From Candidatus Saccharimonadota bacterium (GTDB taxonomy: Bacteria > Patescibacteriota > Gracilibacteria > BD1-5 > UBA2023), in assembly GCA_042852035.1 (NCBI GenBank), contig BAAFHK010000001.1, forward strand, positions 1 through 32,000: a stretch of 32,000 nucleotides of DNA, in the 5' to 3' direction. Positions 2,409-26,010 of the stretch are shown here, one piece after another. The position numbers were made by a program, and so were the translations under genes. Below the pieces are notes generated by a model. The model did not search any database. It saw only the letters and a list, made by a program, of their open reading frames with translations, and was not told the DNA's origin. The number at the start of each line of letters is the position of its first letter. Position 1 is the stretch's first letter.

Positions 2409-2417
2409 GGGATAATA

Positions 2418-2711: not shown

Positions 2712-2770
2712 AGTAACAAAAAAGAGTGAGATTTTTGCAGCAAATCGGGAAATCTGATATAGTCTATAGT

Positions 2771-4874: not shown

Positions 4875-7862
4875 TTATTTATGAGGAGATATATTTGAAA
4901 TTTGAGATATTTGCTTGAGGAAATCTCTCGAGTCCTTCCAATTTTTAACCTCTGTCTTAATTTTTGTGACACTGAGGAGTATCATATCGTGTTTTGCATC
5001 AAACCGTTCTAGAAATGCGCGAAGGGCTTGAGGGGGGGTTCCTTGGTGGAAATCAAAATGATAGTTTTGCCCCACTTTTGATACTTTTGCAACGTGATAT
5101 TGGCTGAGTATAAGTGAGGTTCGTATCATGAGAAAAAGGTTTTCCAATGGGGATTGTGCTCAATCATTCATAAGAAATGTCTCTTCAACTCGATCGAGAT
5201 CTTCAAGGCTCTCAATAGCTTCGATTTCTCGAAAGAATGAAAGTTTATCTATATCAGAATCAAAGAAATCTGTTGGTAAAACATATGAGAGATCAAGTTC
5301 GATCTTCGTTTTTTCTTGATTATTTTTCCCACTTCGAATAGCATCAATTTTCTCCTCGAGGAGCTGAAAGTAGAGTGAAATTCCAACTTCTTTTGATTTT
5401 CCGCTTTGTCTGAATCAGAGTATATCGCCAGTCCCACGTATCTGCATATCACGCATTGCTATTTCATAGCCACTTCCGAGATGAGAATTTTCAGAAAGAA
5501 CAATTAAACGTTCTCTTTCAATATCTGAAAGTTCGTACTTTCGGTACATAAGGTAGCATTTTCCGCTGATATCTTTTCGTCCCACCCTTCAGCGAATCTG
5601 ATGAAGTTGTGCGAGTCAGAATTCTTCTGCTTCCGAGACAATTATAGTATTAGCTCAAAGAAAATTCACACCGTTTTCAATAATAGTGGTTGTAAGAAGG
5701 ATATCGTATTTCCCGTGCTTAAAATCATGAATACGATTCTCTATTTCATCCGCAGGCATTTGTCCATGTGTGGTAATTATTTTCATTCATCTTCCTACAA
5801 AGAGTTCTTCTATCTCTTTTTCTATCATTGGCAATGCTCGGATTCTATTGTGAAGAATGATTGTCTGTCATCATCTCTCAAGTTCAAGCTCTATTGCATT
5901 TTTAATAATCGATTCATCCCAGCGCACTACGATTGTTTCGATGGGCTTTTTTCTTGGGGGTGGAGTAGTTAAGAGTGATATTTTTTTTAGACCAGAGAGT
6001 GCTAGATTGAGGCTTCTTGGGATAGGAGTTGCTGAGAGGGAGAGGATATCGATATGTGCTTTCATCTTTTTGAGGGCCTCCTTATGAGCCACGCCAAACC
6101 GATGCTCTTCATCGATGATAAGAAGTCCAAGTCTTCGGAAGTGAACATCCTCTGAAAGAAGTCGATGAGTTCCAACGATAACATCAATACTTCCATTCTT
6201 AAGTTGCTCAAGTATGGATTTCTGTTCTTTTTGAGTTGTGAGGCGAGTGAGAGATGCTATTTTTACTCAGAAAACACCAAGCCGTTCATCAAAAGTTTCT
6301 CTGTGTTCTTCTGCAAGAATGAGAAGAGGAGAAATCACAGCTACCTGCATCCCAGAAAGTATAGCCTTATAAATAGCGTTCATTGCTACTTCTGTCTTTC
6401 CGAATCCAACATCACCTGATATAAGGCGATCCATTGGAATCTCATCTTCCATGTCAGCAAAAATATCTTCGATAATTGACTTTTGATCTGGAGTATGAGT
6501 ATAGGGAAATGCTTTGAGAAATGTTTCTTCTTCTGTTGGAAATTTTTTGAAGGGAATGCGTTTTGTAAGCTTTCTCTTTGCTTCTGTTGAGAGTATTTCT
6601 TCTGCGATTATTTGCACCTCAGCATCAGTCTTTGAGAGAGTGCGCTCCCACTCCTTTCCTTCTAATCGAGACAGTTCGATATCGGATTCACCGACGTATT
6701 TTGTAATTCGACCGAGCTCAGTGAGGGGAAGGTATACTTTATCATTTCAGCTATATCAAATTACCATATACTCCCTTTCTATAAGGCCGATACGCTTCTT
6801 TTCGAGGTTTAAATACTTTCCGATACCATGCTCACGGTGTACGACCAAATCTCATTCCTTGAGTGCGAGAAGAAGATCGAGGTGTTTTATAGAAGATTTA
6901 CGAACACGATTTTCGATAAAAATCTTTCAGAAAATATCATCCCCAAGGAGAATGTAGGGAGTTAGGGCATCTTCTAATATAAAGCTTTCAAATTGATGTC
7001 GAGAAGACTCAACGTGAAATTTTTGGAGGTTGTTGAGCTCAAAAAATTCATTTAACTTTTTCTCATATCGACTCACAATTTTTTTTATACTTCAGGAGTA
7101 TGTTGAGAGAAATGATTTAAGGGCTTCCGTATTTTCGATTTCGGGTTTTTTTATGCTTTTCTTTTCACTTCAAGTCCTCTCTAGAGATGAATACTCAATA
7201 ATGATTTTGCTATTTTCGTGGAGCCAATCTCTTTCAGCAATAAACTCAGTAGCAATAAGTGCAAGTGGATACTGCGAAATATATTCTAACAATTCAAGAT
7301 TTACAGAATCTTGAAGTGAGGAATTATTGACTTCACTCCCTATGCGTGGAAAAATTACAGAATCATGATGGACATGGCTTTCTCAAGACATTTCCATTAT
7401 GCTTTCTATCTCATTATCAAAAAACTCAATCACCCACTCACTTTCCTTTGCCATTATCCGAATAATAGATCACTCTCTCTTATAGGTGCCGATTTCACCA
7501 CGATAGTCACTCTGAGTATAACCGATATTGAGAAGATTCTCGATAAGGAGATTTTGCTCTATTTTATCTCACCGATTGAGTCGTAAAGTATGGAGTCTTT
7601 GGATTCATTCAAGATTTCCCTGAATTCTGAAAATATCAGCAGGAATAAGAAAAATGTGCTTATGACTTTTTTGGATTCCAAATACTTCACTTGCATGCGT
7701 GAGTGTTTCTATTTCTTGTCAAAGAAGAGACGCTCAGAGATTTTCTATCTCTTTTGATGAAGAATGAGTTCCAACATAAAGAATCGTTTTATCCTTTCAT
7801 TTTACAAAATCCCTCAAGAGAAAGAGGGAGGCTGTAGTATGCGGAATTCACGAAAATATCAT
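4875..7862 (-). CDS. mfd: Transcription-repair coupling factor Mfd (995 aa)
   Basis: A single 996-codon frame links track fragments 4875-5147, 5871-6092 and 6267-6617 through TGA codons. Motifs: 'GDVGFGKTEVA' (Walker A), 'LLIIDEEHRFGV', 'SATPIPRSL', a UvrB-homology N-terminus ('GTYKREGSIIRI') and a TRCF C-terminal domain. ATG 7860-7862 lies 15 nt after the frr stop. The true stop is TAA 4875-4877. Confidence 0.93.
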
Positions 7863-7877
7863 ACAAATTATGGTTCA

Positions 7878-8423
7878 CTAAACCTTCATTATCTCTGCTT
7901 CCTTTTGTTTCTCGATTTCATCAATATTTTTGATTGCTGAATCTACGGCTTTTTGGAGGTCGTTCTCATAACTTTTAATAACATCTTCGGAAAGTGTTTT
8001 TTCAGTCTTTGCCTGATCAAGCTTTTTCTTATAGTCTTGGCGAATATTGCGTATAGACACCTTTGCTTCCTCAGTCATTCGGCTTGAGAGTTTTACGAGG
8101 TCTCTTCTTCTTTCCTCAGTTAATGGAGGGATGTTAATAAGGATAGATTCACCATTGTTATTTGGATTAAGGCCAAGATTTGCATCAGTAATTCCTTTTT
8201 CAATATCGCGCATGATTGACTTATCCCAAGGCTGAATTGAAATTGTCTGAGCGTCAAGTGTCGATACTGCAGCTACATTTTTTAGGGGTTGACTACTTCA
8301 GTATGCCATGACAAACACACCTTCGACGATTGCGGGATTCGCTCTTCATGCCTGAAGCTTCGCAAGCTCATTCTTATAGTGTTCTATGGCTTTGTTAAGC
8401 TCTTGTTGAAGATTTGTGAGCAT
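7878..8423 (-). CDS. frr: Ribosome recycling factor (181 aa)
   Basis: Runs from ATG 8423 to TAG 7878-7880. N-terminus: 'MLTNLQQELNKAIEHYKNELAKLQA(G)RANPAIVEGVFVMAY(G)SSQPL...ISIQPWDKS'. The two TGAs (8346-8348 and 8298-8300) fall on the conserved GRA and YG glycines of Frr. The C-terminal 111 aa appear in the track as ORF 7878-8213. Confidence 0.93.
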
Positions 8424-8495
8424 AATGAGAAAATATAATTAGAATACAAATGTACAAATAGTGTATCCAATTTCTCCTTTTCTACAAGGTTTTTT

Positions 8496-8523
8496 TTGAC
8501 AAAGAATACTGATAACATATTAT
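8496..8523 (+). promoter_or_regulatory. Sigma70-like promoter for the 8561 gene
   Basis: TTGACA (8496-8501), a 16-nt spacer, then TATTAT (8518-8523). The -10 element overlaps the upstream ATG at 8522, which argues for the start at 8561. Confidence 0.5.
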
Positions 8524-8560
8524 GTTCAGGACTATTTATTTCCTATATTTTCCTCAATCT

Positions 8561-9403
8561 ATGCGATCTCTCACCATTAGTGTCGTCGCACTCGTCGTGC
8601 TTTCCCCAGTTGCGAGTGTTTTTGCTGCTGACGCAATAACCGCTGATCCAGCTGCAAATACTACACTTTCAGCTCCTACGAATGTTGCTCCATCTGCAGG
8701 TTCTTCGGCTTGAGAATATGCTTCAGTTGCGTGTAATTCAAACTCAGCTTTTGCAGTAAATAACTGTAACCAATGTTTTGATGGTGGATCAGTAAAAGTG
8801 GGACAAAGATTGACGGGACTTTTTGATAACTGGACAAATAACACACCGAATCCACTTACTGCATACAAGGATGAACAAAAAAATCCAAATATGGTAAAAT
8901 TTGGAAATTCAACTTGGACTACTACTCCTGCAAGTGAAGTTTCAGTATGGAAGACTCCATCAGATATAGTTTGGACGAGTGGAAGTGGAGGAAAGTCTTC
9001 ATTCATTCTTTCACCTGGAGGGAAGGTTCGCTTCATAGAAGCAGATTTAAATGCTGGATATACACTTGATAAGACTGATAAGAAGAATGGTGAACTCGTT
9101 GGTATCCTCAGATTCCCTGTGGTATCTCATGTTACAAATACTCAGACAGCAACTGAGGGTGCAGCAGATACTCACTATGAATGTGTCGCATATAAGCTCG
9201 ATGCACCAGCTCCTACTCCAACCCCAACTCCAACAGTTGTTACTCCTACTCCAACCCCAACTCCAACAACCCCAACTCCAACCCCAGCTCCAAATCCTGG
9301 AAATATGACTCAGACTGAGACGGGTCCAGAAACACTTCTCCTTATTGCTGCAGCATTCTTTATCGCCTTTGGCATGATGATGACTCTTAGAAAGAGAAGT
9401 TAA
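8561..9403 (+). CDS. Secreted surface protein with a Pro/Thr linker and a C-terminal sorting-signal-like tail (280 aa)
   Basis: The frame joins track ORFs 8522-8713 and 8798-9403 through TGA 8711-8713. The signal peptide from ATG 8561 is MRSLTISVVALVVLSPVASVFAADA. An alternative in-frame ATG exists at 8522. A PT-rich linker is followed by 'TETGPETLLLIAAAFFIAFGMMMTLRKRS', then TAA 9401-9403. Confidence 0.75.
9204..9298 (+). repeat. Coding Pro/Thr low-complexity linker (ACTCCAACCCCAACTCCAACA-type repeats)
   Basis: Encodes APAPTPTPTPTVVTPTPTPTPTTPTPTPAPNP. The 21-mer actccaaccccaactccaaca occurs twice. Confidence 0.85.
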
Positions 9404-9420
9404 TTATTCTTACAAAAAAA

Positions 9421-9447
9421 CCCAGGATATAGTCCTGGGTTTTTTTT
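9421..9447. terminator. Rho-independent terminator, potentially bidirectional
   Basis: Stem cccagga / tcctggg (9421-9427 and 9433-9439) with loop tatag. An A-run precedes it and a T-run follows. Confidence 0.8.
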
Positions 9448-9481
9448 ATTGTGATTTTTTCGTGAATTGCAAGGTTGAATA

Positions 9482-9509
9482 TTGACACTTTATATACTAT
9501 ATTTATATT
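9482..9509 (+). promoter_or_regulatory. Sigma70-like promoter for the 9610 gene
   Basis: TTGACA (9482-9487), a 16-nt spacer, then TATATT (9504-9509). This leaves a leader of about 95 nt that contains the palindrome TTAGC-N7-GCTAA (9559-9575). Confidence 0.45.
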
Positions 9510-9609
9510 TAAATGAATTTGTTTTAATGGCATAAAATATGTGAGATTTTTGCAAATATTAGCGAAATATGCTAACGTAGTCTGGTAATATATCTTTAAA
9601 TTATTCCTT

Positions 9610-12600
9610 ATGTTTACTCGCGATATAAAATCTTCTAGCATCATTGATTTCTCAAAATTGAAGCACCAGAAGAGGGCTGAAGCAGAACCAGCATGATGAG
9701 CATCAGTACAAAGCGTGGATGATTATATTGCAGCAATGAAAAAGCATATTGCGTCAATAAAGGAAAGAGATCCACAGAAGGCTCAAGTAATGGAGCAGGT
9801 TGTAGCTGATATTGAAAAGGCAAAGAGTACCCTCTGAAGATCACTTTCACGCCTTCATAAATCTATGCCGAAGCCAACGAGTTACGAAGATGGTGAGCAA
9901 CTGGCTATTAGGGCTTTTACTTCAGTCGGTATAGATCAGAAAGTTGCTGAAGATTATGCTGAAGTTTTTGTCGATACTATAAAGAAGACTCAACTCGGCC
10001 TTGCGGAACTGAAAGTAAGCGTAGACCATAGTGATGGTATTGACTTTGCTGAGATGAAAGATTTGATCCTTGATCCAGCGAATTTTACAGAAACACAGAA
10101 TAAAGAACGTTTCCTCTCAATCTTCCGTGGAATGAAGAAGTCAGCTGTTCGTACGAGTAACTTTGGAGCCCATCAGGTTGAATCTGCTATTAGCACCTAC
10201 CTATGAGATGCTACTAAGCTTGCATCGAGTGTAAAAACAATTACAGGAAAGGATTTTGGAAAGGAAGAACCAGTAAATCAGGCATTAGCAAAGGAATATA
10301 TTGCAAAAATAAATGAGCGTGCTGATTTTCTTTCTCGTATGTATGCTCTTTATAATGGAGCACCTCAGATGTGAGGACTTGAGGCTGTAATGTTAGGAAA
10401 GGATAATGAACTCCTTGCGACTCTCTTTGCTCGAGAGGATTTTGCTGCCAAATTAAAAGATAAATGAGTCAGCTCTGAAAGCCTTCTTCAATATGTAAAG
10501 GATACTGGAATCACTCTTCCAATCCCGTCACTTTGATTCATTGGATCATATACGAGTTCAATTGATACCAAGAGAAATGAAGCTGGATTAAGATCTAATA
10601 ATAGCCACCTCGGAGAGGCAGCATATGTTGAATCGAATCTTTTTGGACTTATAGACCAAGCGAGAGGAAAGGAACCAGCAACATTTGGAAAGGTGGTGGC
10701 AGATATCGTACGTACGATTGTTCGTCCAGTGGAAGCTGGTGTATCAATCGATAGAAGAGCTCGACTTATAGAAAATAGTGCACTCGTTACAGCGCTTTCA
10801 TGGAATGCTATCTTCGATATGAAGACAGGGACAGTAAATGAAGCATGGGAAGCGAATATTACAAAATTAGTAGAGGAATTTCAAAAATCAAATAGTCTCC
10901 CAGAAGGTTTTAGTAAAGAGGCTTTTGTTGCGAGTATGAAGGAAAAAGTAGCATACTTCGATACTATTAAGAGTACAGGAGATAAGGCTCAGGCAGAAAA
11001 TGTTCTCAAACTTGGAGTTATGAGACAGGCATTCGTTAATCAAGCAGCTGAACTTACAGCAAGTCGTGTTGATCAAGGAGCAAAATTTGATGGAGTATCA
11101 GCAGGGTTAGCACTTGTGGTCCTTCCATTTGTAAAATTCAATACTTCAAATGTTGCCGTTTCTCGACAGGGAGTCTCAGAAGCATCAAATGATGTAGCAA
11201 GAGTATCGGCAGGGCTTGTCCGATGAAAAGAAGGACAACAGCTCGATGCGGTATGATTTACTCTCGCTCGAGATGGAGATAACTATGTCTATACTCCAAA
11301 AGAAGGGGTAAGCTATGATTATAAAAAGGTAACACTTCCAGAATGAGTCACTCTCTCAGCTGATGGAAAATCTCTAGTAAGTAAAGAACCACTTTCGCTT
11401 CATGTTACCCAGAGTAGTTCAGTTGACATGAGAAAGGGGGTATCTTCTGTTCTTGTAGTGAAGGTTGCTGAGGCGATAAAAACAAAGGTGGAACTAAAAA
11501 ATATGTATACCCTTGATGCGGATGGTCGTACGTATACATTTAATGATAAACTCGGTAAGGCTACCCTTGATTTTAGTGCCGTAAAATGAGCTGCTTATGA
11601 TGAGAAGGCAAAAAAACTCACACTTCCTTCATGAGTAGAAGTTGTTATGAGACCAGAAAAGGGCGCTGACGGTATCCTTACAAAGATAGTCTTCCTTCCG
11701 AAAGCAGTTTCATCCGTTGATGCTGCTCAGGATGCGGAATCACTGAGAAAGCTCGAGAAGTCACTTGGCGGATCAATTTATATCATGAGTCGTGAAGCAG
11801 CGAAGTACCCTGATTTTACAGACTTCCTCCTCTTAATTTCTGGTCAAAAATACTCTGAGGCAGCGAATGCGCTCGGAAAGATGAAGAAATACCAAGTAAC
11901 ACAAAATATCATAAAAGCTCTCGGTGGTATGGACGCTATTAACGCAAGTCCTGATAAGCTCGCCGTACTTCTTACTTATACTTACGGAGCTATCAATCGC
12001 CTTCTTTGAGGAAATGCGAAAGCATCAGATTACAGCGCTGCTCGTAAAGATACGCATAGAGCGGAAGTGAATCTTGCTCCGAATCGAGCCAATGATGCTA
12101 ACGAAGCTACTTTTTCAAAGATTCAAAGTCATACGCCAACACCACTTACTGGAATTTACGGATCGGATCGTTCTATTGCTGTTTCAGTTTTTGCAACACC
12201 ACTCTGAGGACGCCATCGTATCGATAAGGTGGACGGATCGATTAATGTCAGTAAAGAAGCAAGAGCAGAACTTAATGAGAACCAGAAAAAGGCAGTTATT
12301 GAAGAGCATGCAAAGATTATTCAAGCAGGACTTGACCGAGTGAACGCCATCCTTCCTGATGGTAAAAAAATGACATTAGAACAATACAAAGCAGTTCTTC
12401 TCAGTGGAAAAGTTGAAGGCTTTCCAGGACTTGAAATGGTAAAAAAGGCAGAATTCTTTGAAGCTCGTGCAATGATTCAATGAAACTTCTGTGCCAACAA
12501 AGTTGAAGGTATGGTGCTCCCATCATTTCGAGTGAAGAATGAAGGAGGGGACTATTCGTATGAAAGTAGCACACGTACTCCTCAGTATACCTCAGAGAGT

Positions 12601-13014
12601 ATATTTAACGGAGATCGCATGGCAGTAGATGGAAGTAGTATAGGTATCGGTGCATTAAAGGCTCGTTCAAAAGGTCAAGATAAACCAGATGGCAGTACCG
12701 AGCCAGGTCAACAACCTGAACCAAATGGTAGCACTACCCCTGGAGTTATTAGGGACGGAAGTACCGGAACAACCTGAACTGGTGGTGCCTGACAGAGTGG
12801 CTCTACAAATATTATTAATGGTGGTGCCTCTGGGCCTGGTGGGAATATTATTAGGCCTCCTGCAACATGAGCTACAGGTCCATGAACTACGGTTCCTCCT
12901 GGTCCAGTAATCTCTCCAAGTGCAGCATCAGAATGATCAAACTTTGGTTCTCATATTACAAAAGCAGCTCTTGGAGCATGAGCGTGAAATGAGGCTTGGG
13001 ATACTCTGCAATAG
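9610..13014 (+). CDS. Large orphan protein (1134 aa) with no obvious signal peptide and a Gly/Pro-rich C-terminal tail
   Basis: One frame joins track ORFs 9865-10206, 10693-11226, 11647-12009, 12229-12483 and 12511-12777. ATG 9610 is the first start after the in-frame TAA at 9586. The stop is TAG 13012-13014. No family is recognisable by eye. There are internal repeat-like units ('KKVTLPEGV' and 'KKLTLPSGV'). Confidence 0.75.
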
Positions 13015-13065
13015 AGAGAATAATTGACAATATTTATTTCATATATACTATAACAAAAAAATACC

Positions 13066-13365
13066 ATGAAACATATACATATTACATTATTTATTGCAGG
13101 GGTTCTTCTTGTTACCGGATGTACCCAGAATGCAGATAAAAATGCTTCACCAAACAAAGAGGTTCCACCTGTAGAAACTGTAACAAACACATCTTCACTC
13201 CAAGGAAATGTTACTCCAGAAAAAACTGAACTTCACGGAGCTGAAATCGCAGGGAAAACCCAAGACTTCCCAGCTCCAAGTGATGATGGTACTCCTCATA
13301 CTCCAATTCCAGTAAGTGCTCCCATCGTTGGCGAATCCCAATCCTTTCCTCCCTCAGTAAAATAA
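13066..13365 (+). CDS. Small lipoprotein (99 aa)
   Basis: MKHIHITLFIAGVLLVTGC carries a lipobox (VTGC). The remainder is Pro/Thr/Ser-rich and probably disordered. The ORF is intact in either genetic code. Confidence 0.75.
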   Translation: MKHIHITLFIAGVLLVTGCTQNADKNASPNKEVPPVETVTNTSSLQGNVTPEKTELHGAEIAGKTQDFPAPSDDGTPHTPIPVSAPIVGESQSFPPSVK

Positions 13366-13389
13366 TTGTCCATCTCTAATTTTCTTTCT

Positions 13390-16300
13390 ATGAAACGTTC
13401 ATATTCCACCTTCCTAGGAACTGTGCTTGTCACACTTGCCACCACCATGGTTGGGCAGTCGGCATATGCATTTGACACGACTTGATGTGATCAAGTCTTT
13501 CCTTCAGTACCCTTGAGACAAGGGTATAGCTATACCTTCTATGATGATTATACAAATCACAATAGTTATAAGCATTGGGTAGGAAACCCAAGTGTTGTTA
13601 TTCAAGAGCAGTATGACTATAATCAGTCATCAAACTTACCTGCCTTCGGTCTTTCGAGTGCTCTTTTAGGGCAATCGCAGATTGTGAATGGTGGACAGAA
13701 GATTCGTGCTATTCAGGCAGCTTCAAGTTATCCAATCATTGCTCGACCTGCTACACGAAGTCCAGACAATCTGGTAATACGTTATACGCTCGACTATTAT
13801 GGAGAGAGTGGTCAATCATGGATTGGTCCTTATACTCATGTCGAATGTCAACCATACGAAATCACATGGTGTGGTGACGGAGTTGAAGATAGTAGTGAAG
13901 GTGAGCAATGTGATCTTGGTACATCAAACGGAAGGGAAGGATCTTCTTGTAGTGCTACCTGTACTGATGTTCCACCTCCTCCTCCAGTTGCAGGTGTCTG
14001 TAGTACTACAGTAACTTGACCTCAATCCTCTCCACTTACCAATGGATCATGTAATGTTGGTTCAGTAGTTGGATTTACTTCTGCTGGAACAAATCCTGTA
14101 AATTACTCATGGACTTGTAGTGGTCTTAATGGCGGACCTTCAAGCCCAACATGTAGAGCATCATATACTCCACCTCCCCCTCCAGTTGATGGTGTCTGTA
14201 GTTCAACCGTATCTTGAGAAGTGGCATATCCACTTACCAATGGATCATGTAATGTTGGTTCAGTAGTTGGATTTACTTCTGCTGGAACAAATCCTGTAAA
14301 CTACAGTTGGAAATGTAGCTGACAAAATGGCGGAAACCAAAGTCCTACTTGTAGCGCAGTATATAGAACTCCAGTAAATGGTGTCTGTGGACCAACAAAT
14401 GGAACTAATGTTGCATCAAAACCAAATACCGGTCTTTGTAGTGTTGGAACACCTTCAGTTGTTAATGGAAATGGTCCTTGGACTTGGTCATGTGCAGGAA
14501 CAAACGGTGGTACAACTGCCAATTGTAGTGCAAATCCAATACCAGTAGATGGTGTTTGTTGACCTGCTGATGGTGTGGTAACCAATGTTGCACCAACCAC
14601 TGGTCTTTGTAATGTTGGAACACCCTCAGCTGTTACTGGAACTGGTCCTTGGGCGTGGACGTGTGCTGGAACAAACGGTGGTGCAACTGCCAGCTGTGGA
14701 GCACCTATATGTGAACCGATGAATTTTATACTTTCAGTAAAGAAATACGTAGATGGATTCGATGCTCAAGATACTGATCCGCCAGTTGCCAAAAATCCCG
14801 GAGATTCTCTGATCTATACGATTATCGTAAAGAACGAATGAATTGCATCTACAAGTGGTGCAACGACTATACTTGATGATCTTCCATTCAATATTAGCCA
14901 AAATGGATCCCCCTCAGGACCTGGTTGGAATTGTAGCGCTAGTACGCCAACTCGAATATCATGTACCTCTACAGCAGTTATTCCTTCATGATCAACTTAT
15001 CCAACTATTACTGTTCCTGCTAAGGTAGCGAGCGGTGCGACTGGATTGATTCGAAATCTTACGGTTGTAACTACAAGTAACCCTGATGGATCAACGGCTC
15101 CAGGAAGAGATAGAGACCCAGCTTCTATTATTCTTCCTCAGGATGGAAAATGTAGCTCTACTCTCAGTGGAACCCTTTCTTCACCTATAACTGCAGGTGC
15201 CTGTGATATTGGAACTCCTATTAACTTTACTGTTACCTGAACCAACCCGATTAATTATTCTTGGAATTGTACAGGTGTAAATAGTGGAGCAACAAGTCCT
15301 GTGTGTCGAGCGAACTATACATGTCAATCAAATCCATGTACTGGTAGTGATTATCCAGTGATTTCTATAAAGAAGGCAGCTGAAGGTCGTGATGGTCAAA
15401 CAATCAGTGATGCTGCTCAAGTAGCTCCAGGATCATCATTTAGTTATACCTATACCGTTCAAAATACTGGATCTGGTACAGCTACAGGAGTGACTATTAC
15501 TGATACTCTTCCTCAATACGTTTCTGTAACTGCAGTTCCTACTGGTACGGATTGGACTTGTGCTAAATGAACAAAGGTAGTTGCGAGTGTAACTCACCAT
15601 ACTATTGTCTGTACATATACAAAACCACTTCTTCCAAGAACTACAGCTCCAGTTGTTACAGTGCCAGCACTTCTAAGTCCTTCTACTCCAGTAGATAGTG
15701 CTCTTCGAAATGTTGCGTACGTTTGTCGCGCTTGAGCAAGCTTACTCGAATGTGATCATACTTGTACGAATCCAAATGACCCAAGTTGTACTCCACCTCC
15801 TCCTCCTCCAAATTGTGACCCAATGCCAGGAAGTCCAAATTATGACCCTGCATGTGTAACGACAGGGACTGGATTCAAACTATCCATAAAGAAATATGTT
15901 GATTTTAATGATGCTCAAACGACAGCTTCTGGTTATGTAGTAAGCTACAATCAACTTATAAATTACAGTATTATTGTAAAGAATGAGGGACCCCTTTCTA
16001 CAACAGGTGTTACTACCGTAACTGATGCTCTGCCTGTCGGAGTGGCTCTCAGTGGTACTATTACTGGTACTGGATGGAGCTGTAGCGGAACATCGTCTAT
16101 TAGCTGTAATTCATCTCTTGTTATTGCTTGAGGCTCAAGTTTTCCTGCGATAAATATCCCAGTTCGTGTTACTGCTACTTCTGGAAGCGTCCTCAACGAG
16201 GCAATCGTAAGCAATCCAAATGGGACAACTGATCCAGGAAAAGACAGAGATCCAGCCGTTATACTTATCGGAAATTATCTTCTTTCTATAAAAAAAGCAG

Positions 16301-18807
16301 CGAAAGGACTCGACGGTCAAGCACTTAGTGATGCTGCCCAAGTGGTTCCAGGTGAGTCATTTAACTATACCTATACCGTTCAAAATACTGGATCTGGTAC
16401 AGCTACAGGAGTCACTATTACTGATACTCTTCCTCGTTATATTACTGTAACAGCTGTTCCAACTGGAACTGATTGGACTTGTTCAAAAGGCACAAAAACT
16501 TCTTCCTGAGTAACATATAATACAGTTATCTGTACCTACTCAAGACCACTTCTTGCCGGGGCAACAGCTCCAGTGGTTACAGTTCCTGCTATGGTAGATC
16601 CTGCAACTCCAGAGGGTTCTCAGCTTCGAAATGTGGCATATGTATGTTCGTCTGGAAATACCACAACAGAGTGTAATCCTGGATGTACAGACCCAAATAA
16701 TCCAAGCTGTACTCCGCCTCCACCTCCTCCAAATTGTGACCCAATGCCAGGAAGTCCAAATTATGATCCTGCGTGTGTCGTTGCAAGTAGTGCAAAACGT
16801 TGTGATGCACTCATTTCAAGCCCATCTGCTTCTACTCTTGCTCCAGCTTCGAGTGTTTCATATAGCTGTACGGCTGCAGGTTCTGGAATAATTCTTGCAA
16901 ACCTTGATTACCGTATTACCTGTGGTTCTACAGATTCTTCGGCAACATATGGTTCTTGAAATACAAAAAACTGTACTCTTCCGAATTCATATGGAGTATC
17001 ACAAACAGTTACCTGTAGTGTAAAAGATAGAACAACTGGTGTGGTCTACTCAGGTTCAGATGCTGGTTCATGTAGTGTTACAAAATATACTACGAGTGGT
17101 GGATGTACATGAAATTGTGGATGAAGTAATATGTACTATATTCCAAAGTGTGTGAATAATATCCCAACTTGTACCCAGTATGTAGCAAATTCACTTGCTG
17201 ACTGTAATGCAGCTAATGGAAATAACTGTATGTCTCATGCACAGTGTGATCCTGCTGGTCTTTCTTCACTTTCATGTTCATGAGGTGGTGGAGGAGGGTA
17301 CTGTGGAGATGGCGTACTTCAACCTTCTTCTTGAGAAGAATGTGATGTATGATTTAGTCCACTTATCCCAAGCGATAAGCGCTGGTGTGGTCAACCTGGA
17401 GAAGTTGATGCTTCTGGAAATAGCGTTGCTTGTAAGGTTCGTACAACTACAAACCCTGGCGATAACCCAATCACTGGTCTCTGGATGACAATCCCTCGCC
17501 TCTCAAGTGCTCGACTTGGAAATTCACAACTCGATGTAGTTCCAGGAAGCCCAAATCTTGGTCGCGTAAACTTTGCCTCTTACCAAATGGTTCTCGGTCT
17601 TAATACTCAAGCCTTTACACTTGCTGATACTGTTGGATTTGGAATCAAGACAGGTGAGCCACTTGCTCTTGCTATTCCAAAGAATAAGTATTTCTGTCTT
17701 GGCACAGACGGTACAGCCCTCAATAGTAATACAATATGTACAACATTTGGAGCACTTGCGGATAGCACCTTCCAAACATATCCAAATGTTCTCGATCCAA
17801 GTAATCCATATATCCTTATAGGAGATGGTTACTACCAATACCCTTCGACACAAAATCCTGATGGTTCTTGGAACTATCTCTGAGGAAATGCAAGTTCGCC
17901 AAGCAATATGATTCTGTTCCGTTGACCGACAACATATGGTACAAATACTCTTGCTTCTGCCTTCCGTGGAGACAAACTTGGTACTGATAAGATTACTCTC
18001 TTCCACTATAGTGCTGTTTGAGCTCTTCCAATCGATCTCGTAACTCTCCCTGTAAAGGTTTCAAGTCCAATGGTTGGTACCTCTTCGACAACTCTTACTC
18101 GCAGTAGTATTACTACATTTATGAATAGCAGAGATGCTCTTCGAGATTTCCTTTCACACTTTAGTAATTCGACAACAACCTCAACAGTAGTAAATACTCC
18201 AAATTCAAATCCAAACACTGCTGTAAATGTAATCTCACTCGGATCAAAAACTGCTCCAATCGGAGGACTAAATGTCTCAGGTACGACAGAACTTGCTGGA
18301 TATACTCTCAATGGAAACAGCAATGTCTACGCAGTAAAATGAGATGTTACTCTCAATTGTACAAGCGGAATAACAGCTACATCTCTTTCAGGAGTAAAGA
18401 CACTTGTTGTCGAAAATGGAAATCTTACTATCAATTGTAATAATTCTTATCCTACTTCTGATACTTCTTCAAGTTGGGCATTCATTGTTAAGGGTGGAAA
18501 CATAAAAATTTCTAATAATGTCACCAATATTGTTGGAGTTTACGTCACAATTCCAGAGGCAAGTGTTGGTGGAAAGTACCTCTCAAGTGAAGGAACAAAC
18601 ACCAATAGCATTATCACTATTAATGGTAGCCTCTACGGTGATGCTGCTGACCTTATGAGCAAGCGTAACTACCTTCGTGGTACGAATGCATATGATACAC
18701 TCACAACAGGAGTAATTCTCTCTTACTCTAATCGTGCTCTCGTATCTCCTCCACCTCTTCTTACACAATATCTTAACAACTATACTGTTACCAGAGTGGT
18801 TAGATAA
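13390..18807 (+). CDS. Giant secreted cysteine-rich surface protein (1805 aa) with DUF11-type repeats, Cys-repeat modules, CGDG..EECD repeats and a beta-helix-like C-terminus
   Basis: A single 1806-codon frame joins track ORFs 13513, 14575, 15046, 15301, 15823, 16573, 17485 and 18070 through TGA codons, ending at TAA 18805-18807. The signal peptide is MKRSYSTFLGTVLVTLATTMVGQSAYA. DUF11-like units read 'SIKKYVD..DAQ....PGDSLIYTIIVKNEG....TILDDLP'. There are five 'GVC...G..LC.VG....G.GPW.W.C.G.NGG....C' repeats and 'CGDGV....GEQCD.G..N' repeats. Confidence 0.85.
14031..14300 (+). repeat. Intragenic tandem duplication with 198-nt period and a 72-nt identical core
   Basis: nt 14031-14102 are identical to 14229-14300. 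Flanking sequence (13983 versus 14181 onward) is similar but diverged. Confidence 0.9.
15361..16781 (+). repeat. Intragenic duplication of a roughly 500-nt module at a 921-nt offset
   Basis: 15361-15860 parallels 16282-16781 (DUF11 unit, Cys motif and PPPPPPNCDPMPGSPNYDPACV hinge). There are identical runs, for example 15445-15491 = 16366-16412 and 15808-15845 = 16729-16766. Confidence 0.9.
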
Positions 18808-18821
18808 ATAGGTCCCAGAAA

Positions 18822-18848
18822 AATACTCCCGAAATCGGGAGTATTTTT
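18822..18848 (+). terminator. Rho-independent terminator
   Basis: Stem aatactcccg / cgggagtatt (18822-18831 and 18836-18845) with loop aaat, followed by a T-run. Confidence 0.8.
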
Positions 18849-18866: not shown

Positions 18867-19403
18867 TTATTGAACTTGACCAAGTACCTTTTCTACCGCA
18901 TTTTGAACACTTTCCGTTTCTTTATGAACATACACTATAGTTCAGGATTTTTTTCAAAGTTCATAATATCATGCTTGTTTGAGGTGGGGTCAGAGGGCCT
19001 CCCTTTTTTTCATATCAATAAGAGCACTGAGACATGTTTGCACTCAAGGAATGCTATTTCTTCTTGTAATCGCTAAGAGAGCACTCTGAATTTCAATTAC
19101 TCTTCATTTCCTGCTTGCATGAGGATTGAGATTGATGCCCTGAGGGGGAACAATAATAATCCGATTTTGATGAAAAATCTCAGGAACTAAGAAGCTAAAA
19201 CTTCCTGCATCACCATTCATATCCCAAGTGAGTAGCTTCTGTTCTCCAGTAAAAACTTTTCCATATTGCCCATCTGGATTTAAAAGTTCATGAACTCTTC
19301 GATTTGCTTGATTTTCGCTCCCATCCCAGATTTCTCAAAATCCATCTTTTATCCTACGGGGAAGAAAGGGGCGTTCTCAAATGGCATTGTATTGAATTTG
19401 CAT
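18867..19403 (-). CDS. Orphan protein (178 aa) co-oriented downstream of uvrB
   Basis: Runs from ATG 19403 to TAA 18867-18869. It has 8 in-frame TGA and no TAA or TAG, checked triplet by triplet. It starts 37 nt after the uvrB stop. No family is recognised. Confidence 0.55.
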
Positions 19404-21505: not shown

Positions 21506-22471
21506 ATGCTTCTTTCCATCTTTTTTCTACTTGCCTGACTTATTCTCCTTACGGTTGGGGGGAACCTTCTCGTTGATGGTTCGATCTCTCTTGCAAAAAA
21601 ATGGAAAATTTCAGAAGCAGTTATTGGACTTACTATTGTTGCTATAGGCACAAGTATGCCAGAACTTATAGTCTCCTTACTAGCATCAATTTCTGGAAAT
21701 ACGGATATTGCAATAGGGAATGTATTAGGTTCAAATATTGCAAATATTTTTCTTATTCTCTGAATTACAGCTATTGTGGCCCCGATTAACCTCTCTGCCA
21801 CGACTCGATTTTTTGATCTTCCTGTGAATATTTTAGTATCAATCTTGCTTGGGGTTATCGTCAGTGATATATTCCTGGATGGATTACATCTAAATCTTAT
21901 TGGACGAATTGACGGAATTATTCTCCTCTCTTTTGCTGTTATCTATATTCTTTATTCACTCAAGCATAACAACTTTATTCCAAGTGAGACGGATGAAGTT
22001 GAACGAATACTATCTTCTTGGAAGGCAATTCTATGGGTATTGGGTGGAATATGAGTACTCTTTATTGGATGAAAAATATTGGTCACGGGAGCGGTTGATC
22101 TCGCGAAAATGGTAGGAATTTCTGAAAGCATTATTGGTCTTACAATCGTTGCTATAGGTACGAGCACTCCAGAAATGATTACCTCAATTATCGCTGCAAA
22201 ACGATGAAAGCCCGACATTGCTGTCGGGAATATCGTTGGTTCAAATATTATGAACATTCTCGTTATACTTTGAGTTTCTGCGTTTATAGCGCCACTTCCA
22301 TTTAAGCTCGCATCATTTATTGATCTATTTATGGCATTTATAGCACCAGTAGTAGTGCTTGTGCTTTCGCTTGTATGGACGAGAAACAAACTTGAAAGAA
22401 GAGATGGGATTACTCTTGTTATTATGTATCTCATCTATCTTGGCTATTTGATTTCAGAAGAAATACTTTAA
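21506..22471 (+). CDS. CaCA-family Ca2+/cation antiporter (YrbG-like, 321 aa)
   Basis: Runs from ATG 21506 to TAA 22469-22471. Two alpha-repeats are present: 'GLTIVAIGTSMPELIVS...AIGNVLGSNIANIFLIL(G)' and 'GLTIVAIGTSTPEMITS...AVGNIVGSNIMNILVIL(G)'. It is hydrophobic throughout. Confidence 0.88.
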
Positions 22472-23058
22472 GATAAAACTTCTGGAATCTTCGGTAGTGA
22501 TTTTCATCGTCTTGGACTTGATCGAGAGATTCTTCTCTTATAGAAAATATTTCCTCCACTCATTCACTCAGTTCGAAACTCAGTTACATAAGTGTCTCGA
22601 ATGCTCGGATCAAGTTTATATACTATTTCACTTGCTTCTCGGAAGTTATATCATTCTTGCATAAGTCTAAATAATTCTCGTTGCACAATAACTCCTCTTA
22701 CACTAATTCTTTGAAATGGTGGGACTATCGATGATGCTGTGAGGATTTCTGATGCGCCATTTTTGAGTATTTGGGTATCACTGAGGAGTATTGGCTCGTG
22801 ATGTCATTCCTCATATCTTTCTCCCATAAGGTGAGGAAGTTTTTGTCATACGAGCTCCTCCTCATCACAGAGTGATGCGAGGATTTGTGCGAATTTTACT
22901 TCGTCTCGTATTCCCTCATTGCTTCTCGCGTGAGGGAATTTCATACGAATAAGTTCATGTATTCGAAGGGAAGTTCTCCAGACAGTTGTGCTGGTCTGTG
23001 ATTCTATAAGAGAACGAGCCTCACAAAGATGTAAAAAGAGATCGTTATCTGAAAGCAT
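22468..23058 (-). CDS. Orphan protein (196 aa), last gene of the bcp operon
   Basis: Runs from ATG 23058 to TAA 22468-22470. It extends track ORF 22846-23058 through in-frame TGAs, with no TAA or TAG (checked). It starts 5 nt after the bcp stop. Confidence 0.55.
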
Positions 23059-23063
23059 AGATA

Positions 23064-23465
23064 CTACTGAATTTCTTTTAATAATTTTTCAGCATGCCCC
23101 TTTGCTTTTACATTTCTCCATTCTTGCAGGATTTCTCCATTTTCATCCAGAAGAAAAGTTGATCGAATAACGCCTATATACACTTTTCCATAATTCTTTT
23201 TTTCTCCTATTACACCGAATTGTTCATGGAGTTCTCCACTTGTATCTGATATGAGCTCGATGCCGAGATTACATTTATCGCGAAATTTCGCATGAGATAT
23301 TTCAGAGTCCTTTGATACCCCGATGATATGTATCCCGAGCGCCTTGAACTCATCTTTTAGTCTTGTAAAATCTTGAGCCTCAAGAGTGCATCAAGGAGTA
23401 TCATCTTTCGGATAGAAATAGAGAAGCGTCTTTTTGTTCCCTTGTAAGATTTTCGTAAGATCCAT
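23064..23465 (-). CDS. bcp: Peroxiredoxin, Bcp/thiol peroxidase type (133 aa)
   Basis: Sequence: 'MDLTKILQGNKKTLLYFYPKDDTP(G)CTLEAQDF...GVSKDS...HAKF'. The active-site PxDxTPGCT motif has its glycine encoded by TGA 23391-23393. The gene is absent from the standard-code track. Confidence 0.85.
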
Positions 23466-23485
23466 AGTTTTTTGGTTTTGGAAGA

Positions 23486-24169: not shown

Positions 24170-24231
24170 ACCAAGCAGTATAGACTATTTTTTAGTATTA
24201 CAAGATATATATTATTTTTTTGAACGATATT

Positions 24232-24750: not shown

Positions 24751-24760
24751 ACATTATTTA

Positions 24761-25270: not shown

Positions 25271-25294
25271 GACTTCGGTTCACATATTGTAGAA

Positions 25295-25585: not shown

Positions 25586-25646
25586 AGCGTGAGTTCATAA
25601 AAGGAATAAATCTTCTATAATTATTCCATAACTCTTTATTTCCGTC

Positions 25647-25676
25647 AAAAAAAGAGGTGAATTCACCTCTTTTTTT
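25647..25676. terminator. Bidirectional rho-independent terminator
   Basis: Perfect palindrome agaggtgaattcacctct (25653-25670), flanked by an A-run and a T-run. Confidence 0.8.
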
Positions 25677-25989: not shown

Positions 25990-26010
25990 ATGTGTTTTTT
26001 TATGTTATAT

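What the first reader, a model, noticed from the sequence alone, without database searches (positions are those of the whole stretch)
8496..18848. A 10-kb same-strand cell-surface cluster: candidate host-attachment apparatus
Four consecutive plus-strand genes occupy one third of the window. They are a signal-peptide protein with a PT linker and C-terminal anchor signal, a 1134-aa orphan with no signal peptide, a lipoprotein, and an 1805-aa Cys-rich giant protein. The lipoprotein and the giant gene are only 24 nt apart and are probably co-transcribed. Terminators occur only at 9421 and 18822. Code-25 lineages are thought to depend on other cells, so a surface cluster this large in a compact genome could mediate cell-cell attachment. 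None of the four products has an assignable function.
Basis: inference. Interest (0 to 1): 0.7.

Follow-up and report, generated by a model that had tools for sequence, protein, structure and literature searches.

The report
Conserved three-gene surface adhesin operon
In this uncultured, UGA-recoded CPR bacterium the 10-kb "surface cluster" is really two units: a lineage-wide anchored surface protein, and a conserved three-gene operon (a hypervariable signal-less ~1100-aa protein, a tiny disordered lipoprotein and a giant fibrillar-adhesin-like protein), which is a plausible but untested determinant of which cells it sticks to.

Summary
Read with UGA=Gly (code 25, verified on UvrB, Mfd and DnaK), four plus-strand genes fill 8561-18807 as described.

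The four genes are not one unit.
- **G1 (280 aa):** has its own consensus promoter and terminator and more than 150 homologues. It sits beside frr in all 26 loci examined (the window plus 25 relatives). In about half of them G2-G4 do not follow it.
- **G2-G3-G4:** a real module. In the window and 10 relatives, a leaderless protein of ~800-1250 aa, a 52-99-aa lipoprotein and a giant ending "...NPPPLL..YL.NY.V.RVV[KR]" recur. Spacers are 7-53 nt, a shared extended -10 promoter lies upstream, and the flanking genes fall into five different arrangements.
- **G4:** fibrillar-adhesin-like, with a signal peptide, Cys repeats and four CLIPPER/DUF11 stalk domains.
- **G2:** an orphan with no Pfam, PDB or PHROG relatives. 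It occurs as deeply divergent types that do not follow phylogeny. A relative with Frr 92% and G1 85% identity loses all similarity 8 nt into G2. Only the MFT start, one Cys module and a Pro-rich tail are shared.

A role in host attachment is inferred, not shown. Giant DUF11 surface proteins are already proposed for this role in the sister lineage. I rate this a new variant of a known kind, interest 0.55.

The parts
8496..8523 (+). G1 promoter: TTGACA, 16 nt, TATTAT, preceded by a T-run
   Evidence: 11/12 consensus match. The same element is conserved upstream of G1 in all 11 loci compared, including Class II loci. Coordinates verified.
8561..9403 (+). G1: 280-aa secreted protein. It has a signal peptide, a 4-Cys beta-sandwich ectodomain, a PT linker, and a near-invariant C-terminal signal T-x-T-G-P-E-T-LLLIAAAFFIAFGLMF-LRKR.
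   Evidence: Translation. More than 150 homologues at 46-85% identity. Alignment A1 gives the invariant Cys residues and tail. AF2 pLDDT is 84.9, with the ectodomain above 90. No significant PDB or BFVD fold match. The tail scores 12.1 bits against PEP-CTERM TIGR02595, below the 16-bit cutoff. G1 is adjacent to frr in all 26 loci examined (window plus 25 relatives).
9414..9446 (+). Intrinsic terminator ending the G1 unit
   Evidence: 15-bp stem followed by a T-run; sequence verified.
9482..9509 (+). Upstream promoter-like site P1 (TTGACA...TATATT)
   Evidence: 11/12 match. Shared only by the window, L002, L007 and L008.
9550..9578 (+). Conserved triad promoter P2: -35 TTGCAA (9550-9555), 17-nt spacer, extended -10 TG-n-TAACGT (9570-9578). 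An AT-rich leader without an obvious SD follows, up to ATG 9610.
   Evidence: Alignment A4 of 9 loci has invariant T, TG, TA and T columns. It includes L029 and L031, whose upstream genes are unrelated. Also present in L032. Coordinates verified.
9610..13014 (+). G2: 1134-aa leaderless orphan, one 'type' of a hypervariable positional family. It starts MFT, has a single Cys, and ends in a P/T/G-rich tail.
   Evidence: No hit among 5.8e9 proteins. An exhaustive phmmer search found only two fragments, at 93% and 65% identity. One relative, L001, at 53-56% identity. No Pfam, NCBIfam, PDB-sequence, PHROG or PADLOC hit. Family features.
12166..12564 (+). G2 conserved C-terminal module (aa 853-985): VFATP..G.HRID..DGS ... 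FFEARAM..GN.C961.N...G...P.F
   Evidence: Conserved in 6 slot proteins at E 1e-16 to 1e-67. The module HMM reaches L030 (E 3.7e-5), and after adding L006/L030 it reaches L002 (E 0.0043), each at the homologous position. All 11 slot proteins have only 1-2 Cys, one of them always in this C-x-N motif.
12565..13011 (+). G2 low-complexity Pro/Thr/Gly-rich C-terminal tail
   Evidence: Tail composition in all 11 slot proteins.
13024..13051 (+). Possible internal promoter (TTGACA...TACTAT) in the G2-G3 spacer
   Evidence: 10/12 match. A similar insert occurs only in L002. The other loci have 7-26-nt spacers with no room for a promoter.
13066..13365 (+). G3: 99-aa mini-lipoprotein (lipobox VTGC) with a disordered, acidic, P/T/S-rich mature part
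   Evidence: A lipobox ORF of 52-99 aa occupies the same slot in the window and all 10 relatives that carry the triad. There is no sequence conservation beyond the signal peptide.
13390..18807 (+). G4: 1805-aa Cys-rich giant, fibrillar-adhesin-like. Signal peptide 13390-13470; N-terminal domain 13471-13869; Cys repeats 13993-14697 and 15145-15306; four CLIPPER/DUF11 domains 14722-15144, 15352-15789, 15871-16275 and 16276-16713; Cys-rich region 16732-17346; family-specific C-terminal domain 17377-18804.
   Evidence: Pfam and NCBIfam hits. Domain map. Orthologues P0001, P0011, P0023 and P0030 and the locus copies share the N- and C-terminal domains and the ...NPPPLL..YL.NY.V.RVV[KR] end. Internal 921-, 198- and 171-nt duplications.
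18819..18848 (+). Intrinsic terminator ending the triad operon
   Evidence: 13-bp stem followed by a T-run. A hairpin plus T-run follows G4 in 7 of 8 loci.

Best explanation
The region holds two independent surface-protein units.

**(1) G1 (shown).** G1 is a monocistronic gene with a consensus-grade promoter, conserved across this code-25 phylum and fixed beside frr. It encodes a disulfide-bonded beta-sandwich on a PT stalk with an almost invariant C-terminal signal.

Inferred: the signal is a tripartite sorting or partner-binding signal that keeps an abundant protein on the cell surface.

**(2) G2-G3-G4 (shown).** These form one operon running from a conserved extended -10 promoter to a terminator, and it moves as a block between genomic contexts.

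Inferred mechanism:
- G4 is exported by Sec and forms a mechanically robust fibre. It has a tip domain, Cys-knotted repeats and four CLIPPER stalk domains. The conserved 480-aa C-terminal domain is the cell-proximal docking end, because G4 has no TM or sorting signal.
- G3 is a lipid-anchored, disordered P/T/S-rich tether at the membrane.
- G2 reaches the surface by a non-Sec route. It joins the complex through its conserved C-terminal Cys module and Pro-rich tail, and it displays a large variable body.

G2 (with G3 and the 5' part of G4) is replaced by unrelated 'types' between close relatives, with a sharp junction at the G2 start codon. I therefore infer that this segment is exchanged by recombination under diversifying selection, and that it sets surface specificity, most likely which partner or prey cells the bacterium binds.
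For: Code and genes.

G1 is separate:
- It has its own promoter and terminator.
- G1 is next to frr in all 26 loci examined (window plus 25 relatives). In 14 loci (L012, L014, L015, L018-L028) it is followed by a 311-aa gene, Der and other housekeeping genes.

The triad is a unit:
- Besides the window it recurs in 10 loci: L002, L005, L006, L007, L008, L010, L011, L029, L030 and L031. L010 and L011 look identical over the block, so they count as nine independent instances.
- Spacers are 7-53 nt and 11-27 nt.
- Flanking genes fall into five arrangements: frr...uvrB; frr...DUF87; L21/LysM-CHAP...CorA/VanY...LexA/RecA...holA/FKBP/trmD.
- The conserved promoter travels with it, and a terminator follows G4 in 7/8 loci.

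G4 as adhesin:
- Signal peptide and four CLIPPER/DUF11 domains.
- CLIPPER is an isopeptide-bonded stalk domain of fibrillar adhesins (PMC12617251).
- Giant DUF11 proteins are proposed for host fixation in Vampirococcus (PMC8080830).

G2 variability:
- Identity to the window falls smoothly for Frr (92 to 72%), G1 (85 to 51%) and the G4 C-terminus (48 to 36%).
- G2 gives no match in the two closest relatives but 28-35% in more distant ones.
- L032's type resembles that of distant L005 (E 1.4e-7).
- blastn similarity to L032 is continuous over 7391-9617 and stops 8 nt into G2. Against L002 it is absent over 9389-13970.

Shared G2 features: MFT start, 1-2 Cys, the C-x-N module and the Pro-rich tail.

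The low share of TGA among Gly codons in G1 (5%) and G4 (12%), compared with DnaK (2%) and Mfd (37%), hints at high expression (inference).
Against: - There is no expression, localisation or binding data of any kind.
- G2 has no signal peptide, TM segment or known export signal, and no transporter gene lies in the window. Its K/E/A/L-rich helical-looking parts would also fit a cytoplasmic protein.
- The MFT start may reflect an mRNA-level constraint rather than a protein signal.
- No interaction among G2, G3 and G4 has been tested.
- The AF2 model of the G4 C-terminal domain failed (pLDDT 37), so the 'docking end' is inferred only from conservation and the absence of an anchor.
- The tip domain has no recognised binding fold.
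- L005 and L031 slot proteins join the G2 family only by motif and architecture, not by significant scores.
- Most triad loci share the frr-uvrB neighbourhood, so part of the synteny is simple genome collinearity.
Confidence: 0.55

Rival explanations
1. The triad builds a protective or antigenically variable coat rather than an attachment device. G2 would be an S-layer-like, Cys-poor coat protein exported without an N-terminal signal peptide, as some S-layer proteins are. G3 would be its membrane tether. The type switching would be driven by phage or predator evasion, with G4 a general fibre.
For: - G2 is large, nearly Cys-free and lacks a signal peptide.
- Its types are discrete and non-phylogenetic.
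- S-layer proteins and large non-classically secreted proteins are reported for a closed Gracilibacterium genome (PMC6851277).
- From my own knowledge: S-layer proteins are typically Cys-poor, and RsaA-type ones lack an N-terminal signal peptide.
Against: - No SLH or other S-layer domain, and no PDB-sequence or Pfam hit.
- No type I secretion genes in the window.
- The strict linkage to an adhesin-type giant is not explained by this reading.
Confidence: 0.2
2. G2 is a cytoplasmic or membrane-associated protein, such as a scaffold, chaperone or export helper for the giant. It would be co-transcribed with G3-G4 only because it is needed for their biogenesis.
For: - No signal peptide or TM segment.
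- Charged, helix-prone N-terminal regions.
- A disordered tail with a short terminal peptide, as in some cytoplasmic tethering proteins (the comparison is from my own knowledge).
Against: - A biogenesis factor should be conserved, not replaced by unrelated types between organisms with 92% identical Frr.
- PT-rich segments in this genome occur in the exported G1.
- No ATPase or chaperone motifs and no family hits.
Confidence: 0.12
3. The operon is a contact-dependent effector system. G4 would be the delivery filament, G2 a polymorphic effector, and G3 a cognate protective or immunity lipoprotein that co-varies with it.
For: - G2 and G3 vary together as a block while the flanks stay conserved.
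- Code-25 relatives are predators (PMC8080830).
Against: - In known polymorphic toxins (my own knowledge) the N-terminus is conserved and the C-terminal toxin varies. Here the C-terminal module is the conserved part.
- No toxin, peptidase or nuclease domain was found.
- G3 is a low-complexity disordered peptide, unlike folded immunity proteins.
Confidence: 0.07
4. The genes are unrelated surface genes that are neighbours only because this genome region is collinear among relatives. There is no functional module.
For: Mfd, frr, uvrB and dnaK flanks are also collinear in L002, L005, L007, L008 and L010.
Against: - The triad is kept intact where the flanks differ (L006, L029, L030, L031).
- Spacers are 7-53 nt.
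- The promoter is shared.
- Every giant of the family with upstream sequence available is preceded by both partners.
Confidence: 0.03

Closest known systems
Fibrillar adhesins with CLIPPER (DUF11, PF01345) stalks (PMC12617251; PDB 9IFR)
   Same: G4 has an N-terminal signal peptide, is very long, and has a non-repeat N-terminal domain. It carries four tandem or interspersed CLIPPER domains with Lys / D-x-LP / Asn positions compatible with isopeptide bonds, plus a distinct C-terminal region.
   Different: - No recognised adhesive tip domain.
- No known anchor (LPXTG, OmpA, CTERM). Instead there is a family-specific 480-aa C-terminal domain ending RVV[KR].
- Extra Cys-repeat modules.
- Obligatory genetic linkage to a mini-lipoprotein and a leaderless hypervariable protein.
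- Sequence similarity to 9IFR is not detectable by phmmer.
Giant membrane or surface proteins of Vampirococcus lugosii (Absconditabacteria), proposed to mediate host recognition (PMC8080830)
   Same: A code-25 CPR lineage with giant proteins carrying DUF11 and other adhesion domains. The same functional inference (host fixation) is drawn from sequence alone.
   Different: That paper lists individual giant proteins. A conserved G2-G3-G4 operon, its promoter, and the type switching of the partner gene are not described in the passages I read.
C-terminal sorting signals: LPXTG/sortase and PEP-CTERM/exosortase
   Same: The G1 tail has the same three-part layout: a short motif (T-E-T-G-P-E-T, which contains a T-G pair and a P-E), a hydrophobic helix and a basic end. 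PEP-CTERM is the best NCBIfam match. A sortase exists in a closed Gracilibacterium genome (PMC6851277).
   Different: - There is no LPXTG.
- The PEP-CTERM score is below its cutoff (12.1 against 16 bits).
- The TM helix itself is nearly invariant (AAFFIAFG), which is unusual for either system.
- In about 400 kb of sampled loci, only G1 carries the signal.
Streptococcal M-protein-type hypervariable surface fibrils (comparison from my own knowledge)
   Same: G2 has a variable, helix-prone body, a conserved C-proximal part, and a Pro/Gly-rich segment of the kind that spans cell walls. Its types differ between close relatives.
   Different: - G2 has no signal peptide and no LPXTG.
- It shows no detectable homology to M proteins.
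- It is about 1100 aa long, with Gly-rich hydrophobic stretches.

Membership tests
Fibrillar adhesin with CLIPPER/DUF11 stalk (G4) | N-terminal Sec signal peptide | tested here: met
   MKRSYSTFLGTVLVTLATTMVGQSAYA|FD, with n-, h- and AxA regions read from the sequence. No dedicated predictor was available.
Fibrillar adhesin with CLIPPER/DUF11 stalk (G4) | Repeated stalk domains of the CLIPPER family | tested here: met
   PF01345 E 1.3e-24 with 4 stretches. DUF7507/CLIPPER_2 E 5.5e-11. TIGR01451 E 3.8e-19.
Fibrillar adhesin with CLIPPER/DUF11 stalk (G4) | Intramolecular isopeptide bond (Lys, Asn, catalytic Asp/Glu) | tested here: inconclusive
   Each repeat has [LI]S[VI]KK, [ILV][LT]D.LP and a late Asn. 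No alignment to 9IFR could be obtained, and no structure model was made.
Fibrillar adhesin with CLIPPER/DUF11 stalk (G4) | Recognisable adhesive tip domain | tested here: not met
   The N-terminal domain (aa 28-160) has no Pfam, NCBIfam or PHROG hit. It is conserved and sometimes duplicated in relatives.
Fibrillar adhesin with CLIPPER/DUF11 stalk (G4) | Known cell-surface anchor (LPXTG, OmpA-like, CTERM sorting domain) | tested here: not met
   There is no C-terminal TM or motif. The protein ends ...NRALVSPPPLLTQYLNNYTVTRVVR, and the C-terminal 476 aa have no family hit.
LPXTG sortase substrate (G1) | LPXTG (or LAXTG/NPQTN) motif followed by a hydrophobic helix and a basic tail | tested here: not met
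   The motif is T-[KQ]-T-[EK]-T-G-P-E-T. The helix and the RKR tail are present. No LPXTG model hit appeared in NCBIfam.
LPXTG sortase substrate (G1) | Sortase encoded in the genome | not testable with these tools
   None in the 32-kb window. A sortase is reported in another Gracilibacterium (PMC6851277).
PEP-CTERM / exosortase substrate (G1) | Match to the PEP-CTERM sorting-domain model at or above its cutoff | tested here: not met
   TIGR02595 scores 12.1 bits against a cutoff of 16, E 0.29.
Bacterial lipoprotein (G3) | Signal peptide ending in a lipobox [LVI][ASTVI][GAS]C | tested here: met
   The window has ...LLVTGC. The 10 other loci carrying the triad have L[AST][GSA]C or TGC at residues 14-24.
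Bacterial lipoprotein (G3) | Lgt/LspA processing enzymes in the genome | not testable with these tools
   Only 32 kb of the genome is available.
S-layer protein (G2) | SLH or another known S-layer or cell-wall-binding domain, or homology to a known S-layer protein | tested here: not met
   No Pfam, NCBIfam or PDB-sequence hit, with either single sequences or a 6-member profile.
Polymorphic toxin / effector (G2) | Conserved N-terminal trafficking region, variable C-terminal toxin domain, and an adjacent folded immunity gene | tested here: not met
   The polarity is the opposite: the C-terminal module is conserved and the body varies. No toxin domains were found. The downstream ORF is a disordered lipoprotein.

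The most novel reading that the evidence does not exclude
The G2-slot proteins may be a new class of leaderless, cassette-switching surface specificity proteins of code-25 CPR bacteria.
- They would be exported through a so-far unknown signal (the conserved MFT-x-R-[HK] N-terminus).
- They would be coupled, possibly covalently through the single invariant Cys of the C-x-N module, to a lipoprotein-tethered CLIPPER fibre.
- Recombination at the conserved promoter/start codon and within G4 would swap whole G2-G3 cassettes, and so change host range.
Probability: 0.15. Interest if true: 0.8.

Novelty: new variant of a known kind. Interest (0 to 1): 0.55.

Why it matters
Gracilibacteria have no cultured member, and how they find and hold partner cells is unknown. 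A conserved operon pairs an adhesin-type giant with a partner gene that is swapped wholesale between near-identical genomic backgrounds. That gives a concrete, trackable candidate for a host-specificity locus. G2 types could be correlated with co-occurring hosts in metagenomes, followed in time series, and targeted in proteomics or cryo-ET of enrichments.

The work also defines three unannotated protein families for annotation pipelines:
- G1, with a new C-terminal signal.
- The G2 Cys module.
- The G4 C-terminal domain.

Finally, public protein sets translate these genes with code 4, which places Trp where Gly belongs.

Tried and rejected
G2 could therefore be searched only with aa 310-538 and was not modelled.
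2. AF2 of the G4 C-terminal domain, via orthologue P0001 with a 7-row MSA, gave pLDDT 37. It is unusable and no fold search was run on it.
3. Foldseek of the good G1 model against PDB and BFVD gave only weak Ig-like or pilin-like resemblances (E >= 2.5e-3, TM < 0.4). No function was assigned.
4. P0123 and P0124 from the exhaustive search are repeat-protein noise.
5. P0002 (L003) and P0003 (L004) share only Cys repeats with G4 and lie in unrelated contexts. I rejected them as orthologues.
6. The first hhalign run used a global-alignment flag by mistake, and the pairwise rerun timed out. I replaced both with phmmer and HMM iteration.
7. phmmer of the CLIPPER region against PDB found nothing.
8. 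Ideas considered and dropped for the G2 Cys module:
   - Thioester domain: the Cys/Gln order and domain size do not fit.
   - Sortase-like His/Cys/Arg: the Arg at +13 is not conserved.
   - Double-glycine leader: the GG is not conserved.
9. PHROGs, PADLOC and Rfam gave no hits.
10. The hypervariable PTD-repeat gene of Sieber et al. is a different gene.

Full report
**Check of the observation.**

With the standard bacterial code the region breaks into short ORFs. With TAA/TAG as the only stops, four long plus-strand genes appear.
- UGA encodes Gly. In UvrB a TGA aligns to the conserved Gly of 'MYNGDR' in a solved UvrB. TGAs also fall on the Gly of Mfd motif VI (R[G]RVGR) and of DnaK 'M[G]KIIGIDLG' (the motif identities are from my own knowledge).
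- An exact database match of G1 names the source as a 'Candidatus Altimarinota bacterium' MAG (locus tag HHAS10_00060, 750-kb contig). That phylum sits in the Patescibacteria/CPR group.
  - G1 has a signal peptide, a PT linker and a C-terminal TM/RKRS.
  - G2 is 1134 aa without a signal peptide or TM (maximum 19-residue hydropathy 1.48).
  - G3 has the lipobox VTGC.
  - G4 is 1805 aa with 71 Cys.
  - The G3-G4 gap is 24 nt, and strong terminators lie at 9414-9446 and 18819-18848.
- Two corrections:
  - G1 most likely starts at ATG 8561, because the ATG at 8522 lies inside the -10 box and 8561 is the conserved start.
  - G4 is not without assignable domains. It has four DUF11/CLIPPER hits.

**G1 is a separate, phylum-wide gene.**
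- G1 has more than 150 homologues at 46-85% identity, none of them annotated.
- In a 43-sequence alignment the four Cys are invariant. So is the C-terminal stretch T-x-T-G-P-E-T-LLLIAAAFFIAFGLMF-LRKR, which is better conserved than the ectodomain.
- AF2 with this alignment gives a confident beta-sandwich ectodomain (pLDDT above 90 over about 165 residues), a disordered PT linker and a terminal helix.
- Foldseek finds no significant match in PDB or in viral models, only weak Ig-like or pilin-like resemblance.
- The tail's best family match is the PEP-CTERM sorting domain, but below its cutoff (12.1 against 16 bits), so it is not a member.
- G1 has a consensus-grade promoter (TTGACA, 16 nt, TATTAT) conserved in every locus compared, and its own terminator.
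- G1 lies next to frr, divergently transcribed, in all 26 loci examined: the window plus 25 relatives.
- In 14 of those loci (L012, L014, L015, L018-L028, with G1 about 45-50% identical) the next gene is an unrelated 311-aa protein followed by Der and other housekeeping genes.
- G1 is therefore not part of an obligatory four-gene apparatus.

**G2-G3-G4 is a conserved operon.**
- The orthologue of G4 (P0001) lies in an 81-kb contig collinear with the window. Four further G1-anchored loci and two metagenome loci show the same order.
- The key test is giants of the same family in other neighbourhoods. The family is recognised by the C-terminus ...NRAL.NPPPLL..YL.NY.V.RVV[KR].
  - L029 is flanked by L21 and LysM/CHAP on one side and CorA and VanY on the other.
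  - L030 is followed by LexA and RecA.
  - L031 is followed by holA, FKBP and trmD.
  - L006 has a DUF87 ATPase instead of uvrB.
  - In each, the giant is preceded by a lipobox ORF of 52-86 aa, and before that by a Pfam-less protein of about 1000-1250 aa.
- The spacers are 7-53 nt (G2-G3) and 11-27 nt (G3-G4).
- A hairpin plus T-run follows G4 in 7 of 8 loci.
- Upstream of every G2-slot gene there is the same promoter, including where the upstream gene is unrelated. It reads TTGCA[AT], 17-18 nt, TG-n-TA-nnn-T, then an AT-rich leader and ATGTTTAC. Window coordinates are 9550-9578.
- In the window and L002 only, the G2-G3 spacer carries an extra TTGACA-type site, a possible internal promoter.

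**What the three products look like.**

G4:
- A signal peptide and a 130-aa N-terminal domain. Relatives duplicate this domain or place it internally.
- Two CGDG...E[EQ]CD motifs and five 50-aa four-Cys repeats.
- Four CLIPPER domains, a Cys-rich region, and a 476-aa C-terminal domain conserved at 33-48% across the family.
- Recent internal duplications of 921, 198 and 171 nt at about 84% identity.
- CLIPPER (DUF11) has been shown to be a CnaA-like, isopeptide-bonded stalk domain of fibrillar adhesins (PMC12617251).
- G4 has no TM, LPXTG or CTERM anchor.
- My AF2 attempt on the C-terminal domain failed (pLDDT 37).

G3:
- It is conserved only as a lipoprotein signal peptide followed by 35-80 residues that are 35-47% Pro+Thr+Ser, acidic and almost free of Lys/Arg.

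G2:
- No relatives in Pfam, NCBIfam, PDB sequences, PHROGs or PADLOC.
- No hit in a 5.8-billion-protein word-indexed search.
- An exhaustive HMMER search found only two fragments.
- One 53-56% relative in a Gracilibacteria MAG.

**The G2 slot is hypervariable in a cassette-like way.**
- The 11 complete or near-complete slot proteins fall into group A (window, L001, L007, L008, L010, L029), which shares the C-terminal 300-500 aa. Group B is L006 and L030, and L002, L005 and L031 are singletons.
- All of them share:
  - absence of a signal peptide, and only one or two Cys per roughly 1000 residues;
  - one Cys always in a C-x-N...P motif 100-190 residues from the end;
  - a Pro/Thr/Gly-rich tail.
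- Most, 8 of 10 with a complete 5' end, also share an MFT or MYT start.
- An HMM of the 130-aa Cys module from group A finds L030 (E 3.7e-5). After adding group B it finds L002 (E 0.0043). Each hit is at the homologous position, against a background of all ORFs of all loci. L005 and L031 remain linked by motif only.
- Divergence does not follow relatedness. Relative to the window, Frr, G1 and the G4 C-terminus decay smoothly. G2 is undetectable in the two closest relatives (L032: Frr 92%, G1 85%; L002: 80%, 65%) but 28-35% identical in more distant ones. L032's type instead resembles that of distant L005 (E 1.4e-7). The window's own type exists elsewhere at 93% identity.
- At the DNA level, similarity to L032 is continuous at 79% from 7391 to 9617 and ends 8 nt into G2. 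Against L002 there is no similarity from 9389 to 13970, and it resumes inside G4.
- This is the pattern expected of allele or cassette replacement by recombination between conserved flanks, under diversifying selection.

**Mechanism, and what is inferred.**

Shown:
- two transcription units;
- conserved linkage of the triad;
- adhesin-type stalk domains in G4;
- a lipoprotein signal in G3;
- type switching of G2.

Inferred:
- G4 forms a surface fibre whose conserved C-terminal domain is the cell-proximal end.
- G3 tethers the assembly to the membrane.
- G2 is exported by a non-Sec route and supplies the variable, exposed specificity element.
- The whole assembly mediates binding to partner or prey cells.

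The last point matches what has been proposed from sequence for giant DUF11 proteins of the predatory sister lineage (PMC8080830). It also fits the general expectation that Gracilibacteria attach to other cells (PMC11452946), but nothing here tests it.

The main rivals are a protective variable coat, a cytoplasmic biogenesis factor, and an effector/immunity system. The polarity of conservation in G2, the lack of toxin or S-layer domains, and the disordered nature of G3 argue against the last two more than against the first.

**Comparison and novelty.**
- The general idea, that giant adhesin-like surface proteins of code-25 CPR bacteria serve host attachment, is already in the literature.
- In the papers I could search, I did not find the three-gene module, its promoter, the G2 family with its single-Cys module and cassette-like replacement, the G4 C-terminal domain, or the G1 family with its near-invariant tail.
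- I therefore rate it a new variant of a known kind, of moderate interest. It offers a concrete, testable candidate host-specificity locus, but the function is unproven and the most intriguing component (G2) could not be modelled with the tools allowed.

Noticed in passing
window 12-4825 (also L005, L006, L007, L010): Upstream of mfd there is a second conserved surface or signalling group. It comprises a large He_PIG Ig-repeat protein (partial, 12-650), a secreted FecR-domain protein (672-2408, minus strand) and a CHASE2 adenylate/guanylate cyclase (2726-4825). Relatives keep the same set.
   Followed up: partly
P0001, P0023 and P0030 against L002, L030 and L031: The public protein collection translated these code-25 genes with code 4, so Trp stands at every TGA where Gly belongs (for example 10 or more W/G differences in P0001). 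This degrades homology searches and structure prediction for the whole phylum.
   Followed up: yes
window CDSs (table): The share of TGA among Gly codons varies strongly: DnaK 2%, G1 5%, UvrB 6%, G4 12%, G2 22%, cyclase 27%, Mfd and the FecR protein 37%, p178 47%. If TGA is avoided in highly expressed genes, G1 and G4 are abundant proteins.
   Followed up: no
window 9579-9609, 13015-13065 and 13366-13389, and the same spacers in the loci: Start codons of G1-G4 and their orthologues are preceded by AT- or pyrimidine-rich sequence with no obvious Shine-Dalgarno motif. L006, L007 and L029 carry a small inserted hairpin in the G2 leader. Rfam has no match anywhere in the window.
   Followed up: partly
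window 8430-8495 (frr-G1 intergenic): A motif AATAGTGTATCCAAT...CTACAAG(C/G)TTTTTTTT is conserved upstream of the G1 -35 box in all loci compared, including distant ones. It may be the divergent frr promoter or a regulator site.
   Followed up: no
window 18867-19403 (minus strand): A 178-aa orphan lies between G4 and uvrB and is conserved at 34% in L002 (184 aa). It has no Pfam hit, and 47% of its Gly codons are TGA.
   Followed up: no
window 21952-26319 (minus strand): A run of about nine small to mid-size ORFs lies between uvrB and dnaK. Only one (23064-23513, a Bcp/AhpC-TSA peroxiredoxin) has a family hit. L002 has a shorter, different set at the same place.
   Followed up: partly
window 28492-29733: The 413-aa gene after dnaK is very AT-rich (GC 0.276, against about 0.39 for the window, with a GC dip to 0.30 at 29001-30000). 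It has 13 TGA codons and hydrophobic C-terminal segments, with no family hit. It may be foreign or fast-evolving.
   Followed up: no
window 15362-16778: G4 contains a 921-nt duplicated unit (one CLIPPER domain plus the Cys/Pro-rich linker 'CTNPNDPSCTPPPPPPNCDPMPGSPNYDPACV') at about 84% nt identity. It also contains 198-nt and 171-nt Cys-repeat duplications. These are substrates for copy-number change.
   Followed up: partly
L008 8320-13712: In this relative the giant gene appears broken or mis-assembled. My code-25 ORF call gives only the C-terminal 724 aa, while the database call is 1365 aa, with a 1.3-kb gap after the lipoprotein.
   Followed up: no
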